Assembly: GCF_963853765.1 (NCBI RefSeq)
Contig: NC_088856.1
Location: 35,712,001 to 35,776,000 of the forward strand
Source of the DNA: Magallana gigas
Taxonomy: Eukaryota
Direction: 5' to 3'
DNA length: 64,000 nucleotides
A program made the position numbers. How positions within the stretch are numbered: position 1 is the stretch's first letter; every line of letters starts with the position of its first letter. Below, in pieces: positions 19,001 through 25,000 of the stretch.

Positions 19001-22000
19001 GTAAGCAATACAATCCACATGAAACAGTTAACAAATCTAAATTAAAAACCAAACTCATTTAACAAAGAACAAAATTTGGTTTCACTCCATATATTTTCAA
19101 AACTGCACAATGACTTTAAAAAAAAAAAAATTGTCGTTTTAATTAATCTGAAATCTCTATGGGGTTTACCCATGAAACAAGAGCCGCACAACTAGACAAA
19201 GGGAAGTCGTATATTTATGAAAATCTCGGGGACATGACAATAATCTACCCAGCCCGGCGTGACTAAAACTGAGGCCTATCCAACACAATGTAACCAATGG
19301 AGGATCACTAACGCACTAGCTCTATACACTTGTGTGAATGACACCAACTGGAAAACGGCAAACTGCACTTACAGGCATGGCATTGAACAATTAACAAATT
19401 CCTCTCCAAAGAAACAATGGAGGCTCTTTTTTTTGTTTTTTTTATCTTCTTCTGTTGTGTAGATATATTGTCTTCTTCAATGAGCCATTCACTGATTAAA
19501 TTTCTAGATGTTCATCCATTTCTTGGAGACAAAGACAAAGATTTTCAGTACTGATTGTTCAAACAGGGGATTCTATTCCCTAACCATTATAGTCCTCTCT
19601 CAAAAATCCTTCGAAATCTGTCTATCGAGGCTTTTGAATCCTTATTTTTTTGGGGTTGAACAAAAAATAAATAGTCAAAGTCCCAGTGTTTTCAAACACA
19701 TCTGATTCTGTTCACACTAAAAAAAATGAGCTATATCTTTCCTACTCAGTAGACAATGTACAAATATAACATAGCCAAACACTTCGATGAAAAAAAAAAG
19801 ACATTGAAGAAACCCATTCAAAAAATGACAGATCGACGTGATTAGGTTCAATAACCGCCAAGCATCGCTCCTTGTAATTAAAAAAAAAAGATCATTTAAA
19901 TTTCATGAAATGTAGCTCTATAGGATGGGGTGAGTAATGAAATCCATTTTTTCATACAAAAGAATTTCTATGCACTTGAATTTTGCTTAAATATGCATGC
20001 TTTTTTTTATTAAAGGTTTGCAATAAGGCACTTTGATGCTTTTCTACCATTTTTTGTATATGTCTGAACAAACTCTTCAAAAATGCAATCAATATACCTG
20101 TATGCTCTACTATAAATTACAACTGATGCCTATTCCTTTGAAGGGTGAATATTGAAAGAGATTCCTTTGAACATTGACCTTTGACAACCAAAGCTTAGAG
20201 AAAACACACACAATATTTATCCAATGTTTTTAGTAGTAAACTTCCATATGATGGTAAATAACTATATGAAAACAATGAAATGATTTTTTTTGAAAAGTTG
20301 CTCATCTCATTTCTCCTGATTTTTCATACATAGCAGAAAAAAATTGCTAAAAGGGAATTGACCATTATGCTTTACAATAACATGATGATTCTCCCTCTAT
20401 TAATTCCCCCCACATTTCCTGTGGTAACATTCAGATGCTGTGCCACTCAGACAAACTGATTTCAAATGGTGCTAGAACTTGATTTCATCTATTCACCACA
20501 TGAGACCAGGCTGTCAGCCAGTAGCGTGTCTCAGTTGTTTCCCTTTGCTGTCGTTTCCCCCTGCAGTTTCTTCCCTTGTTCCATTACTTATCTCCCTTGG
20601 CCATCTAAAAGAATCGTTCTAAGGCAAAGTCAATTTAATAGTTCGAGAAAGTTTATTCTTAGGCAGCAAAATTCAAAAGAGGTTTCATAATAGGTAACAA
20701 TTAAGCCAACTTTGTATTTCCTTTTCTAGATCAAATCCAAATTCTAAGTATCTTATACACTTGGAATTTCCTCATAAAAAAATGAAACCCCCCCCCAAAA
20801 GAATAAAAAAAAAAAATAGAAAAAAAAGAAAAGAAAAAAAAAATGAACAAACACAAAAAACCCTCATTTTTCAGATAGAATTGACACAATTATTTTACCT
20901 CTAGAGTTTGCTTACAAGTTCAAGAGGAATTCTACCTCCCCATTCATCATACAGTGTACTTTGACTGCCCTACTGTTAAGACAATGGCCTGTGTTGGTGT
21001 ACAGCCCATCAAGGTCCATTGGCCCTGGAATGGATAGCCCCCTCAACTTCAGTGAAACCGACCATTAGATGATGACTACTTGGTAATCACACATGAAGGA
21101 ATGCTATCTTCTGGCCATATCAGAGCTAGGTCTGATCAATTTTTTATTGTTTTCTCTCTTCCCCACAGTTAATGTCCTATTGATTCGTAGAAAAAACATT
21201 TGTACATCAAAGGGCTATTGTAAGAAACAGGTCTTACTTGTCCATTCCAAACTACAGTTTCTAACCAGTGAAAGGCATGACTTCATTTCTCCATTTATGC
21301 ACTTTAAAAAAAACCCCATCTTTCTTTAAAAAAAACAAAAAACTGTATTATGAAGAAAACCTTAAAAATCAAACTTCTAACACCAGAAAATGTTGTCTTT
21401 TTCTAGCATCTGCAAATTGACAAAATTTAAACTTAATTTTTGTTCTTTTTCGCTAACCTCCAAATTAGAATAATCAAATTCAAATGGATAAAACATTGCA
21501 AAACAGAGGTCCATGCAGAGACAAAACCATTACAAGACAAAATTGATAATCAACATGGACTACACTGTCCTTTAGTAGTGGTATAGACATTTGTCTTGGA
21601 ATCTAATTAAGATTCTCTTTGGGACATCAAACATAATGCAATCAATGAATCAGTCTGCATACAAGTGTTATTCTGCAACTCTTTTGCCTCAACATGTGCC
21701 AGACAGACAAATATAGCTGCAAATATACAAATAAGCCCATTAGCATCAGGCCTTACGTTTTCTGAACCAGGAAATCACAAAACCAGGAAAACCCACAAAC
21801 CAGGAATTGCAGGAAATGAAAGCACCTGAAAAACCACACAACATGGAACCTGATTTCAGAAAGAACATGGCCAAATGGTTTCAATTCATTCATATTTTTC
21901 TACTACTTCCCTCCCAGTATTTTCTCATTTACTGTATCTCCACATGGGATACTTTTTTTTATTACCTGAAGAAGTTGAGTTTATCCGAATTAAACCTAGC

Positions 22001-25000
22001 CAAGTGACTGAATCAATGGATGCACTCAATGATGGAATCAATGCCGGGGCCCGCTGCAGAATCCCCAAGTCTCCGTGAATCTACTTCATAATTGATTAAT
22101 TTCAGAAAATATTCAACGACAAGTTAATATGAAATGCATACTGTGTTACATATACTCAATGCGCAGATCCCATTTCCCCATTACACATTAAACAAAAGCG
22201 ACATCGCTATCAAAACCTGAACAAAGATTTCAAAGCAAATACCTGCAACATCATGAGGCCTTAATTTTTCTGCCAATAATTTGTTGTACTCGATTTCAAT
22301 GAGATAGGGATCCTAAAAGTCTGTACACCCTTGGAAGAAGAGCCCATGAATGAACTGTCAGTTCCACACCAGACAGACGATTTTCGGAGGCACGCGGTCC
22401 AAATTTAATGAGCCTGGTATCTATGTTTAGGAAGAGAATCAGTCCTCTTTGAGATCGATAAAAAACAAGCAATGCGAATCAATATATAGATGTAGCTCCC
22501 AGCCCAATAAATTGTTAATGTACAGGAGAAAGCAGTGAGACTCTAGCATTCACAACTTCTAGTCTGCACCCATGGTAGGCGTCCCAAGGAGGGTAAAACA
22601 CAGGTGCCGTTCTACTGATAAATCTACCCCCAAAAAGTAGCCACTTTGTTCATTCACAGATTCCTGCCTCTCAAATTTGCAGTAGAAAGAAAATTATATT
22701 AGCATCAATCCATACCTTTCATGTACTTGTGTACATGCCAACGGCTCAAAATAGCGTCAATAATTTGCGTAGACTGTACATAGACCACGGAAGACTCGAT
22801 TGTCAATCACTCCTGCACTGACCCAGTCTCTCTTGAATTCCAATTGATTGACCACGCTTTGTTCTCACAATATACAGTCTTGGTGACCATCGCTCACAAT
22901 GGGCATAACGATAGAGGTATTATCTGTCTCTATTGCTCCCTCAATCATCTTTTCCAGCTCTAGCCACCGTATATATACATATATGCTATATTAGGGTGAT
23001 TCAATAGTCTGTAGGTTCCAACAGGCCAAGATTACATCAACTTGTGTGTTTCTAACTACCACATAAGGTCAGACTACTCCTATTCGAGATGTCAAACTCT
23101 CCATGGAACAATTCAATCCTATTTTTGGAGAGTCGTCTCTAGCATTCCAAATCGTCTCTAGCATTCCAAATCTACAGCAAACTGCAGCCTTTACAACAAT
23201 CCAATGCAATGCCTAATTAACACGCAAGATCTTGAATTCTGCAATATCCATCTCTTCGTCCTGCATGAGTTTCAAAAACAAAGGCCTCAGTGGAGCATTA
23301 TCTTTGATATGAATGATTTAAATGCTAGAGCCACTGAGATGTACATATATCCTATATTGGTCCTTTTATCAGGAGCATCTGGGAGGCATTAATAATTTAA
23401 ACAATTATTCAGGCATCGCCTTCTATGTTCTATTCATCACGTTTTACACAAAGGAACTTAAAAAAAAAAAATTCCAAAAAAGATCAATGTTTCAAGTATA
23501 GATGCATCTACCAACTAATGGATTTCTCATAAAGGGATACTGACAAATCCATTCAAAGCCTATAAATTATCAATTTGTGTTGCTTTCATGTTTCAAAATT
23601 CATGAACAAAATTTTCTATTTGGGCTTAAACTTGGAATGTAAGAAACATTTTGTAACGCTTGATCTAATTATGCTGTCAAAAATAAGAAAAAGCTACAAA
23701 ATTTTTGTCGGGAACAACTGTTATCAACTTCCAACAATCTCATGTACACACTTGGAACAATTAAAGCACCATGCCAAGCAATAAAACTAGAGTTATCTTT
23801 CCCTGAAGCTGGGTAATGACCAAGGACTACAACCAATTACAGCGAGCAAAAGATCGATGCAGAGCCTTTGAACTTTCACCAGGGATCCCAACCTCCAAGG
23901 TTGTTGACCCAAGGCATTGCAAAAAATAAAGCAAAATAATGGTCCCCCAAACACATCCTCTCACCATCATCTATATTGGACAGTCAGTTTAATGCCAAAC
24001 ACTGAGATTCTAAACCCTCACTCTGCCAAAATCTAGACTAACTATTGAGATGGTGTGTAAAATTTGAGTTCCTTTTAAAAAGCAGAATAGAAGTTAAGAA
24101 ACTCAAAGTGAGGTCAGAATTACAAAGTCTTCTTATTGGTGGCAGGATTAAAAAAAAATTAAAATTCCGAAGAAGATAAAACAAAAAAAATCAAAAAAAA
24201 ACTTCCCCCAAAACCACTCTGTTTTGTCTTGCAGGCAGGCAACCAACAGTCCCCTCAATTTTCCAAGGTCCTTGCATTTGATCTAAAGAGCTTGATTAAA
24301 AGTCCCATTTGTGAATTAGAACTTTAGAAACCAATCTAGAAAGTTTTAAAGAAATTCTAATAAAAACAAAAATGCTACATAGTAATTAATTTTGTATATC
24401 CCCAGTTAAAATAGAATTCAAACTTCAATGAAAAGCAAGATCGTTCAGAAAAACTGATGTCTAGAAAAACATTCTATGCCTTAGTTACCTCAACCAATCA
24501 AAAGGGCACCTATCTAAGACAAATATCAAGGCCACATTTCAATGTCCAAATCCATGCTTTGTCATTCCACTAAAAGATGCACTGATTTCAAATGGTGCTA
24601 GACAGTATTTTCACTCCAAAATCTATTCACCACTTGAAACCAGGGACCTACAGCAGATTCTCATTTCCATGGAAACAGCTCACATGACCTGCAATCAAAA
24701 CCCCCTCTAAATCCATCCTAATTTTGTGCCTACAGTAAAACTTACTGGTAAAATGAAGCCCTGTGAACCATAAATTCTTAGTTTCAACACAAACCAAGAT
24801 TCTCAGCTCCAAACCAGAAATCTTTACGATTTGAGGGAGAAAAGACGTAACTTCCTGTTTTCACAAAATTTACTTCTATGTGAGTTCTTCATCATCAGCA
24901 AGTTATACTGTATACATGTAACCCAGATAAGATTTGTATCTTCCCAAGATTTCCTTCAATCCGAGTTTTATGTAAGTGAGTCTTGCTGTTAGTAACCCAG

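What the first reader, a model, noticed from the sequence alone, without database searches (positions are those of the whole stretch)
20450..24650. Two miR-29 hairpins inside intron 3 of an uncharacterised coding gene
Two paralogous pre-miR-29 hairpins lie ~4.1 kb apart, in the same (minus) orientation as the host, within intron 18630-25015. They share the seed and differ only at the 3' end (…CAGUUU vs …CAGUGC) and in loop length. They are invisible in the ORF track. As I recall, vertebrate miR-29 clusters sit in lncRNA hosts, so residence in a protein-coding intron and possible co-expression with this gene are notable.
Basis: partly seen in the sequence, partly recalled or inferred. Interest (0 to 1): 0.68.

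Follow-up and report, generated by a model that had tools for sequence, protein, structure and literature searches.

The report
Oyster miR-29 pair inside TSGA13-like gene
Two genuine-looking miR-29 microRNA hairpins sit in one intron of an oyster protein-coding gene that belongs to the TSGA13 family, the same gene that lies next to a miR-29 pair in human and mouse, so the pairing of microRNA and gene may be very old.

Summary
Two hairpins on the minus strand (20450-20515 and 24576-24648) pass Rfam's mir-29 gathering score (57.4 and 55.8 bits, cut-off 46.7). Both fold better than shuffled sequence. Their 3p arms share an identical 20-nt start and begin at 20474 and 24600. Both lie in a GT-AG intron, 25015-18630, of a nine-exon minus-strand gene whose exon lengths sum to 592 codons, the length of its Magallana gigas orthologue. 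The window is therefore oyster DNA. The miRNA family and its duplication in some protostomes are already known (PMC4238352). The new point is that the "uncharacterised" host belongs to the TSGA13 family. A profile of its bivalve orthologues finds relatives from other invertebrate phyla, and 12 of 33 of them pass Pfam's TSGA13 cut-off; one is named TSGA13-like by NCBI. In human and mouse, TSGA13 and a miR-29 pair lie in one small interval (PMC1865561). I therefore propose an ancient miR-29/TSGA13 linkage. Co-transcription with the host is inferred, not shown. Synteny in other animals could not be tested here. Interest is moderate.

The parts
24576..24648 (-). Upstream mir-29 hairpin (first to be transcribed); 367 nt downstream of the exon 3 donor
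   Evidence: Rfam RF00074 55.8 bits, E 2e-09; MFE -36.2 kcal/mol, z -4.01; 37 base pairs in the 106-nt fold, 11 of them basal to the 3p 22-mer
24579..24600 (-). Predicted mature 3p arm of the upstream hairpin (22 nt, ends ...CAGTGC); the 5' end is predicted, not measured
   Evidence: its first 21 nt equal chicken miR-29b as printed in PMC9876980
20450..20515 (-). Downstream mir-29 hairpin; 1820 nt upstream of the exon 4 acceptor
   Evidence: Rfam RF00074 57.4 bits, E 7.3e-10; MFE -33.8 kcal/mol, z -3.55; 29 base pairs in the 96-nt fold, 9 of them basal to the 3p 22-mer
20453..20474 (-). Predicted mature 3p arm of the downstream hairpin (22 nt, ends ...CAGTTT)
18630..25015 (-). Intron 3 of the host gene (6386 nt, GT...AG, 35% G+C); holds both hairpins
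   Evidence: Donor AAG|gtatgc and acceptor ttttttttcag|CAAAAG read from the sequence
25016..25180 (-). Host exon 3 (55 codons, coiled-coil-like RLEKLSLKWD...)
   Evidence: tblastn, 98% identity to M. gigas P0010 residues 89-144; boundaries
18557..18629 (-). Host exon 4 (73 nt)
   Evidence: 24 of 24 residues identical to P0010 residues 145-168; AG acceptor and GTAAGT donor
47520..47602 (-). Host exon 1, with the start codon at 47602
   Evidence: tblastn, 25 of 25 residues identical to P0010; donor read
44668..44851 (-). Host exon 2
   Evidence: tblastn; acceptor read, donor
15283..15621 (-). Host exon 5
   Evidence: tblastn, 114 of 114 residues identical to P0010; boundaries
12719..12813 (-). 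Host exon 6
12289..12369 (-). Host exon 7
11709..11918 (-). Host exon 8; the only piece of the window itself with a TSGA13 Pfam signal, and a weak one
   Evidence: Pfam PF14994 E 0.032, 13.9 bits, profile positions 78-136
10857..11405 (-). Host exon 9 with the stop codon (10857-10859); holds the conserved C-terminal W-x-P-L-S-M block
   Evidence: tblastn, 98% identity to P0010; orthologues match PF14994 profile positions 227-267 here
46801..48200 (.). CpG-undepleted stretch over the host gene's 5' end; a candidate shared promoter region (inferred)
   Evidence: 500-nt windows with CpG observed/expected up to 1.36, against 0.16-0.66 in 2-kb windows across most of the gene body

Best explanation
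These are two functional paralogous genes of the bilaterian mir-29 family in an oyster (Crassostrea/Magallana). They lie 4.1 kb apart in intron 3 of a nine-exon, 592-codon gene of the TSGA13 family, on that gene's strand.

Shown: the hairpins meet the family model, fold well, carry the family's 3p sequence and lie in a GT-AG intron whose flanking exons belong to one gene.

Inferred: RNA polymerase II transcribes them as part of the host pre-mRNA from the promoter near 47-48 kb. Microprocessor crops both hairpins from the intron; each has 9-11 base pairs basal to the mature duplex, as Drosha requires. Dicer then releases 3p-dominant miRNAs. Because nucleotides 1-20 are identical, the two repress the same seed-matched targets and differ only in 3'-end pairing or turnover.

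Also inferred: the miR-29/TSGA13 association is ancestral rather than an oyster novelty, because in human and mouse TSGA13 and the miR-29a/b1 pair lie in one small interval.
For: Family and fold. Rfam scores are 57.4 and 55.8 bits against a cut-off of 46.7, and the minus strand scores about 20 bits better than the plus strand. Fold z-scores are -3.55 and -4.01.

Selection. Between 2.0 kb around one hairpin and 1.4 kb around the other, the only real similarity is the hairpin arms (E 7e-10); all other blastn pieces are A-rich or have E>=0.002. The duplication is therefore old and both copies have been kept.

Mature sequence. The first 20 nt of both 3p arms equal chicken miR-29b as printed in PMC9876980.

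Gene model. The exon lengths sum to 1776 nt, or 592 codons, which is the length of M. gigas P0010.

Host family. The profile of 7 bivalve orthologues gave 264 proteins at E<=1e-3 and 40 at E<=1e-30. Of 33 strong hits, 12 reach the PF14994 gathering score, 6 more match it at E<1e-3, and no other family recurs. A second profile returned 10 of 10 proteins with PF14994 precomputed. The Styela relative is named 'testis-specific gene 13 protein-like' by NCBI.

Mammalian neighbourhood. PMC1865561 passages say that KLF14, a eutherian retrogene, is flanked by TSGA13 and MKLN1 in human and mouse, with two miR-29 genes adjacent to KLF14.

Promoter. There is no CpG-undepleted 500-nt window between 11.2 and 42.1 kb. 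Upstream of the hairpins on this strand there are only two before the PAK gene's 3' end: 42.1-42.9 kb and the host's 5' end at 46.8-48.2 kb.
Against: No small-RNA or RNA-seq data could be consulted, so neither processing nor co-expression is shown.

The window's own exons do not reach the Pfam TSGA13 cut-off: exon 8 scores 13.9 bits with E 0.032, and the last exon has no hit. The M. gigas orthologue has no Pfam hit at E<=0.01, and the best bivalve scores 26.8 bits against a cut-off of 27. Membership therefore rests on transitive homology.

No vertebrate TSGA13 protein was reached directly.

The CpG-undepleted patch at 42101-42900 in intron 2 could be a separate promoter.

PMC1865561 also reports that miR-29 was absent from the opossum assembly of the time, and that synteny breaks in chicken. 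The vertebrate linkage I can cite is therefore for human and mouse only.

The gene name implies a testis-restricted host, whereas miR-29 is broadly expressed in vertebrates (recalled). That would argue against simple co-expression.
Confidence: 0.75

Rival explanations
1. The two hairpins form their own primary transcript, driven by a promoter inside the host gene. They are nested in the host but not dependent on it.
For: A CpG-undepleted patch lies in intron 2 at 42101-42900 (observed/expected up to 1.09). The vertebrate miR-29 clusters have dedicated non-coding transcription units (PMC8268529). A testis-named host is an odd driver for a broadly used miRNA (recalled).
Against: No CpG-undepleted window lies within intron 3 or in the 17 kb of intron 2 next to exon 3. 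The upstream hairpin begins only 367 nt after the exon 3 donor, which leaves little room for a promoter inside intron 3.
Confidence: 0.3
2. The residence in this host is a lineage-specific acquisition: a mir-29 copy moved into the gene in bivalves or oysters, as mir-998 and mir-995 did in insects. On this view the TSGA13 neighbourhood in mammals is a coincidence.
For: PMC4238352 passages document repeated mobilisation of mir-29-family copies into introns of protein-coding genes in insects, and call the protostome duplications the rarer situation. Only two lineages, oyster and human plus mouse, support linkage here.
Against: If genes were placed at random, the chance that the orthologue of the oyster host is one of the four protein-coding genes flanking the two mammalian miR-29 clusters is about 4 in 20,000. 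This is my own estimate; it ignores the retrogene KLF14. The duplication in the oyster is old.
Confidence: 0.25
3. One or both hairpins are decaying, unexpressed copies.
For: There are no expression data. The downstream hairpin has four unpaired positions within its 3p 22-mer, against three in the upstream one.
Against: Both arms are conserved between copies while the loops and all flanks have diverged beyond recognition. Both pass the curated family threshold by about 10 bits.
Confidence: 0.04

Closest known systems
Vertebrate miR-29b~a and miR-29b~c clusters
   Same: Two mir-29 paralogues lie on one strand within one transcription unit. The oyster 3p arms equal chicken miR-29b for 20-21 nt. 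As in vertebrates (order recalled, not checked), the copy that matches miR-29b for longer, 21 nt against 20, is the upstream one.
   Different: The vertebrate pairs lie within about 1 kb of each other (recalled), and the amphioxus pair within less than 1000 nt (PMC5054118 passage). The miR-29b2/c pair is hosted by a long non-coding RNA (PMC8268529). Here the spacing is 4.1 kb and the host is protein-coding.
Drosophila mir-285, mir-998 (in E2f) and mir-995 (in cdc2c)
   Same: They belong to the same seed family, and two of them are intronic in protein-coding genes on the host's strand (PMC4238352 passages).
   Different: The hosts differ. The insect copies are dispersed singly and are described as insect-specific transpositions, and mir-285 itself is intergenic.
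Capitella mir-29 duplication and other lophotrochozoan mir-29 genes
   Same: A protostome lineage with two mir-29 genes is already recorded (PMC4238352 passage). A pearl-oyster miR-29a has been studied functionally (Tian et al. 2015; I saw it only as an entry in the reference list of PMC7488030).
   Different: No host gene or genomic context for these is given in any passage I saw. I recall curated entries for oyster mir-29 genes in MirGeneDB, but I could not consult it.
Deeply conserved intronic miRNA and host-gene pairs (for example mir-33 in SREBF; recalled)
   Same: If the linkage is ancestral, this would be another miRNA tied to one host gene across phyla.
   Different: In mammals the miRNA is beside TSGA13, not inside it, so the relation would have been loosened rather than kept.

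Membership tests
mir-29 precursor family (Rfam RF00074) | Covariance-model score at or above the curated gathering score | tested here: met
   57.4 and 55.8 bits against 46.7
mir-29 precursor family (Rfam RF00074) | Stable hairpin with the mature sequence on the 3p arm, starting with the family seed | tested here: met
   z -3.55 and -4.01; 18 and 19 of the 22 3p positions are paired; 20-21 nt are identical to chicken miR-29b as printed in PMC9876980
mir-29 precursor family (Rfam RF00074) | Small-RNA reads from both arms with homogeneous 5' ends and 2-nt offsets | not testable with these tools
   No read data were available
Canonical intronic miRNA (host-transcribed, Drosha-dependent) | Lies within an intron, on the host's strand, with the flanking exons belonging to one mRNA | tested here: met
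   GT-AG intron 25015-18630; single orthologous proteins span both flanking exons; spliced transcripts on contigs of about 2 kb
Canonical intronic miRNA (host-transcribed, Drosha-dependent) | Basal stem of about 11 bp below the mature duplex | tested here: met
   9 and 11 base pairs basal to the 3p 22-mers in the minimum-energy folds
Canonical intronic miRNA (host-transcribed, Drosha-dependent) | Expression coupled to the host mRNA, with no transcription start of its own | not testable with these tools
   Only an indirect hint from CpG depletion
Mirtron | The hairpin ends coincide with the splice sites of a short intron | tested here: not met
   The hairpins are 367 nt and 1820 nt from the splice sites of a 6386-nt intron
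TSGA13 (Pfam PF14994), for the host gene | Pfam gathering score (27 bits) reached by the protein itself | tested here: not met
   Window exon 8 scores 13.9 bits with E 0.032; the other three host-exon frames scanned give no match. Four of 8 bivalve orthologues match at E<=0.01, the best at 26.8 bits
TSGA13 (Pfam PF14994), for the host gene | Significant homology to proteins that do pass the family threshold, over collinear regions | tested here: met
   The bivalve profile hits amphioxus, Phallusia and Styela proteins at E 3e-47, 4.5e-45 and 5e-33, and these score 36.5, 43.1 and 43.7 bits on PF14994. Twelve of 33 strong hits reach the gathering score. Ten of 10 hits of the second profile carry PF14994. 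The matches fall on profile positions 66-136 and 197-272, in the order of host exons 8 and 9
TSGA13 (Pfam PF14994), for the host gene | Orthology to vertebrate TSGA13 (reciprocal best match, single copy) | not tested
   No vertebrate protein was retrieved. I fetched no human or other vertebrate sequence

The most novel reading that the evidence does not exclude
The miR-29 pair and TSGA13 have been one locus since before protostomes and deuterostomes split. On this reading the miRNAs arose in, or were very early captured by, a 5' intron of the TSGA13 gene, a family that may predate Bilateria. The oyster keeps that arrangement. In vertebrates the miRNA-bearing 5' part became uncoupled and survives as the non-coding miR-29a/b1 host transcript beside a shortened TSGA13. 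The order of paralogues, with the more miR-29b-like copy first, would then also be ancestral.
Probability: 0.4. Interest if true: 0.6.

Novelty: new member of a known kind. Interest (0 to 1): 0.45.

Why it matters
miR-29 is one of the most studied vertebrate miRNAs, with roles in fibrosis, ageing, DNA methylation and cancer, yet the origin of its non-coding host transcripts is unexplained. An invertebrate locus with the same two-hairpin arrangement inside a protein-coding gene, whose mammalian counterpart lies next to miR-29a/b1, gives a concrete and cheaply testable hypothesis. It would explain where the locus came from and how a coding host can turn into a lncRNA host. It would also give TSGA13, a gene with almost no literature (36 papers in the searched library), an evolutionary context. 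For oyster biology it predicts that miR-29 output follows the expression of one identifiable gene.

Tried and rejected
Other miRNAs in the host gene. An Rfam scan at E<=1 over 10000-48500 gave only the two mir-29 loci, their weaker antisense readings, and two chance-level hits (mir-297 at 27.2 bits against a cut-off of 90; isrL).

A recent tandem duplication. This is rejected because the flanks share nothing.

Mirtron. This is rejected on distance from the splice sites.

ESM Atlas look-alikes of the last host exon gave no usable hit.

Direct Pfam assignment of the host gave nothing above threshold, so I went through profile searches.

The second profile search was crowded: only the 8000 candidates sharing most words were scored. 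It reached no vertebrate protein.

Literature.
- 'TSGA13' with 'miR-29' gave 2 papers, neither about evolution or invertebrates.
- 'TSGA13' alone gave 36 papers, of which 25 were listed; no title is evolutionary.
- 'Mir-29-P1/-P2' with Lophotrochozoa or Mollusca: none of the 15 listed papers holds either miRNA name.
- 'intronic miRNA, host gene, conserved, bilaterian, miR-29' gave 4 papers. In PMC3497579 the 5 passages shown matched other names beginning mir-29 (mir-290-294, mir-297, mir-2951 and the like) and said nothing about a mir-29 host.
- 'miR-29, intronic, amphioxus, host gene' gave 10 papers. The Halocynthia paper lists a single miR-29 with no host.
- PMC7488030 says nothing about the oyster mir-29 locus.

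Steps left out. The bacterial and archaeal genome collection was not scanned because it cannot hold this locus.

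
Full report
WHAT IS THERE

The window has no N, is 34.5% G+C and has a CpG observed/expected ratio of 0.51. At Rfam's curated thresholds it holds exactly two RNA family matches. Both are mir-29 (RF00074) on the minus strand: 20450-20515 at 57.4 bits and 24576-24648 at 55.8 bits, against a gathering score of 46.7. The same places read on the plus strand score 33.7 and 36.6 bits, so the minus strand is the coding one.

With about 15 nt of flank, the two regions fold into single long hairpins:
- Downstream hairpin: -33.8 kcal/mol, z -3.55; 1 of 200 shuffles folds as well.
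- Upstream hairpin: -36.2 kcal/mol, z -4.01; 0 of 200 shuffles.

The 19-nt start of the 3p arm occurs twice in the window and nowhere else, even with 3 mismatches allowed. The expected count is 0.05, and 0 of 100 shuffles gave two. The 3p arms start at 20474 and 24600, 4126 nt apart. They are identical for 20 nt and then diverge (...CAGTTTG versus ...CAGTGCA). In the minimum-energy folds, 18 and 19 of the 22 3p positions are paired, and 9 and 11 further base pairs lie basal to them. Established knowledge of Microprocessor puts the cut about 11 bp from the basal junction, so these stems fit.

THE TWO COPIES ARE OLD AND BOTH ARE KEPT

I aligned the hairpins with their flanks, searched intron 3 for direct repeats, and ran blastn between 2.0 kb around the downstream copy and 1.4 kb around the upstream copy. 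All three give the same picture. The only real similarity is the two arms of the hairpin (64 aligned columns, E 7e-10). Every other piece is an A-rich tract or has E>=0.002. The loops differ in length and sequence, and the 5p arms differ at two positions. Conservation confined to the arms is what selection on two working miRNA genes produces after an ancient duplication.

THE HOST GENE

An exon-by-exon search with the largest open frame (10860-11474, minus) found 28 longer proteins. Ten carry organism names:
- Magallana gigas, 98% identity, 592 aa
- Crassostrea angulata, 97%
- C. virginica (three isoforms), Ostrea edulis and Saccostrea cucullata, 79-81%
- Pinctada imbricata, 56%
- two freshwater mussels, 41-45%

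All are named 'uncharacterized' or 'hypothetical'. The other 18 are unnamed proteins on contigs of 1.8-2.3 kb, which must be spliced transcripts because the gene spans 36.7 kb here. The window is therefore from an oyster of the Crassostrea/Magallana group.

I mapped eight of the named proteins back to the window with tblastn. Seven of the eight cover exons on both sides of the hairpins; the Pinctada model starts further downstream. tblastn missed the small exon 4. Its frame reads 24 residues identical to residues 145-168 of the M. gigas protein, between an AG acceptor and a GTAAGT donor.

Reading each junction from the sequence gives these exons, all on the minus strand:

| Exon | Coordinates |
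|---|---|
| 1 | 47602-47520 |
| 2 | 44851-44668 |
| 3 | 25180-25016 |
| 4 | 18629-18557 |
| 5 | 15621-15283 |
| 6 | 12813-12719 |
| 7 | 12369-12289 |
| 8 | 11918-11709 |
| 9 | 11405-10860 |

Their lengths add up to 1776 nt, or 592 codons, which is the length of the orthologue. The hairpins sit 367 nt after its donor and 1820 nt before its acceptor. They are therefore ordinary intronic hairpins, not mirtrons.

WHAT THE HOST IS

Pfam finds nothing above threshold in the window's own exons. The only signal is TSGA13 (PF14994) at 13.9 bits, E 0.032, in exon 8. Four of eight bivalve orthologues match TSGA13 at E<=0.01. All are below the 27-bit cut-off (best 26.8), and the matches fall at two collinear parts of the profile.

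A profile of seven named bivalve orthologues (alignment A1) was scored against 1.84 billion representative proteins. It found 264 at E<=1e-3, 121 at E<=1e-10 and 40 at E<=1e-30. Of 33 long, strong hits scanned against Pfam:
- 12 reach the TSGA13 gathering score (28.7-43.7 bits).
- 6 more match it at E<1e-3.
- 15 match no family at E<=0.001.
- No other family recurs. The one exception is a Saccoglossus model with an ArfGap-ankyrin-GIT front end, which is probably a fused gene model.

I looked up names for 30 clusters, and 23 carry an organism:
- Molluscs: scallop, abalone, and seven other gastropods (Lymnaea, Bradybaena, Batillaria, Candidula, Biomphalaria, Elysia)
- Other lophotrochozoans: Lingula, Owenia, Capitella, Tubulanus, Watersipora
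- Hemichordates: Saccoglossus, Ptychodera
- Echinoderms: Lytechinus, Holothuria, Antedon
- Invertebrate chordates: Branchiostoma, Phallusia, and Styela, whose protein NCBI names 'testis-specific gene 13 protein-like'
- Cnidarians: Nematostella, Pocillopora

The cnidarian matches lie in the N-terminal and middle part of the profile, which includes a coiled-coil stretch, and they have no Pfam hit. I treat them as tentative. None of the 23 named organisms is an arthropod or a nematode.

A second profile of 18 named members (A3) returned 10 proteins, all from amphioxus or tunicates and all with PF14994 precomputed. It returned no vertebrate protein, and that search was crowded.

I conclude that the host belongs to the TSGA13 family by transitive, collinear homology. 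Orthology to vertebrate TSGA13 itself was not tested.

THE LINK TO THE VERTEBRATE LOCUS

I recalled that human TSGA13 lies near MIR29A/B1 on 7q32 and looked for this in print. Only 2 papers in the library hold both 'TSGA13' and 'miR-29'.

Passages of PMC1865561 state the following. KLF14 lies at 7q32.3, telomeric to TSGA13. KLF14 is flanked by TSGA13 and MKLN1 in human and mouse. Two conserved miR-29 genes lie adjacent to KLF14. KLF14 is a retrogene that arose after marsupials and eutherians diverged. The same passages say that miR-29 was absent from the opossum assembly then available and that synteny breaks in chicken.

PMC3441634 lists TSGA13 among the genes of the 7q32 minimal deleted region, whose miRNAs that paper also studies.

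So in two mammals the TSGA13 gene and a miR-29 pair share one small interval, and in an oyster the pair lies inside the TSGA13-family gene. If genes were placed at random, the chance that this particular gene is one of the four protein-coding genes flanking the two mammalian clusters is about 4 in 20,000. This is my estimate, not a tool result.

From memory only: the human miRNAs, KLF14 and TSGA13 are on one strand, with the miRNAs upstream. That would match the oyster, where the hairpins lie upstream of the exons (8 and 9) that carry the TSGA13 Pfam signal.

No eukaryotic genome collection was available. Linkage in other phyla, which would decide the matter, therefore stayed unchecked.

HOW IT MOST LIKELY WORKS

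Shown: the family, the fold, the strand, the intron and the single host gene.

Inferred:
- Transcription as part of the host pre-mRNA.
- Co-transcriptional cropping of both hairpins by Microprocessor without loss of splicing.
- Dicer processing to 3p-dominant miRNAs that share seed and targets.

A soft argument for a shared promoter comes from CpG depletion. The gene body from about 12 to 46 kb is CpG-depleted (observed/expected 0.16-0.66 in 2-kb windows). As I recall, invertebrates with mosaic methylation show this in germline-methylated transcribed regions, while their promoters stay undepleted. No undepleted 500-nt window lies between 11.2 and 42.1 kb. Upstream of the hairpins, before the PAK gene's 3' end, there are two: 46801-48200, over the host's first exon, and 42101-42900, in intron 2. 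The second one keeps the rival of an internal promoter alive.

COMPARISON WITH WHAT IS KNOWN

The family is bilaterian. PMC4238352 passages say that:
- Two-copy arrangements are usual in deuterostomes.
- Select protostome lineages such as Capitella also have a duplication, which the paper calls the rarer situation.
- Drosophila mir-285 is intergenic.
- Drosophila mir-998 and mir-995 sit in introns of E2f and cdc2c after insect-specific mobilisation.

Amphioxus has two paralogues within less than 1000 nt (PMC5054118 passage). Halocynthia has one (PMC5399378 table). Human miR-29b2/c is hosted by the lncRNA C1orf132/MIR29B2CHG (PMC8268529, abstract and passages).

Both oyster 3p arms equal chicken miR-29b for 20 nt, and the upstream arm for 21 nt (PMC9876980 table). 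The 20-mer occurs in 68 papers; the 15 listed are vertebrate studies. The upstream oyster copy matches miR-29b for 21 nt and the downstream one for 20, which matches the vertebrate order as I recall it. That rests on one nucleotide and is only a hint.

I found no paper that places an invertebrate mir-29 in a TSGA13-family gene or discusses TSGA13 in miRNA evolution. The supplements of PMC4238352, and MirGeneDB, may hold oyster loci; I could not see either.

VERDICT

As miRNA genes they are ordinary members of a well-known family, probably already catalogued for oysters. What raises the finding above routine is the identity of the host and its match to the mammalian neighbourhood. Together these make an old, unexplained feature, the origin of the miR-29 host transcripts, directly testable by a synteny survey. 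Interest is 0.45.

Noticed in passing
window 14022-14072 (-): A 17-residue stretch matches C. virginica isoform X1 of the host protein 17 of 17 (P0029 residues 281-297). It is absent from the 592-aa M. gigas isoform X2, so it is probably an alternative cassette exon between exons 5 and 6.
   Followed up: partly
window 56648-57064 (-) and 57500-57706 (-): Two separate open frames each encode a P21-Rho-binding (CRIB) domain (Pfam PBD, E 7.4e-15 and 2.1e-08), upstream of the PAK kinase exons at 51865-53074. They may be duplicated, mutually exclusive exons.
   Followed up: no
window 8924-9470: A 180-bp unit is repeated 3.0 times at 94% identity. It creates a spurious 208-aa open frame (8890-9513, minus) with weak chance Pfam hits.
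   Followed up: no
window 5156-6354: A cluster of short tandem arrays (periods 39-62) is built around an AACTATAGTT-like palindromic core. It lies within the most CpG-rich part of the window (observed/expected up to 1.7 at 3901-7400).
   Followed up: no
window 42101-42900: This is the only CpG-undepleted patch inside the host gene's introns (observed/expected up to 1.09). Open frames at 41213-41777 lie just beside it. It could be an alternative promoter or a young insertion.
   Followed up: no
proteins P0065, P0066; all 23 named clusters: The host family appears to reach cnidarians (Nematostella, Pocillopora; tentative, no Pfam hit). No arthropod or nematode is among the 23 named clusters. Mir-285 is intergenic in flies (PMC4238352).
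   Followed up: partly
protein P0051 (Saccoglossus, 825 aa): This gene model joins ArfGap, ankyrin and GIT_SHD domains to a TSGA13-like C-terminus. It is probably two neighbouring genes fused by the annotation.
   Followed up: no
Exons shorter than that would have been missed.
   Followed up: partly
protein P0001 against window 10857-10859: An unnamed database protein that is 100% identical to the last host exon continues past the TGA stop, reading it as W. It was evidently predicted under another genetic code.
   Followed up: no
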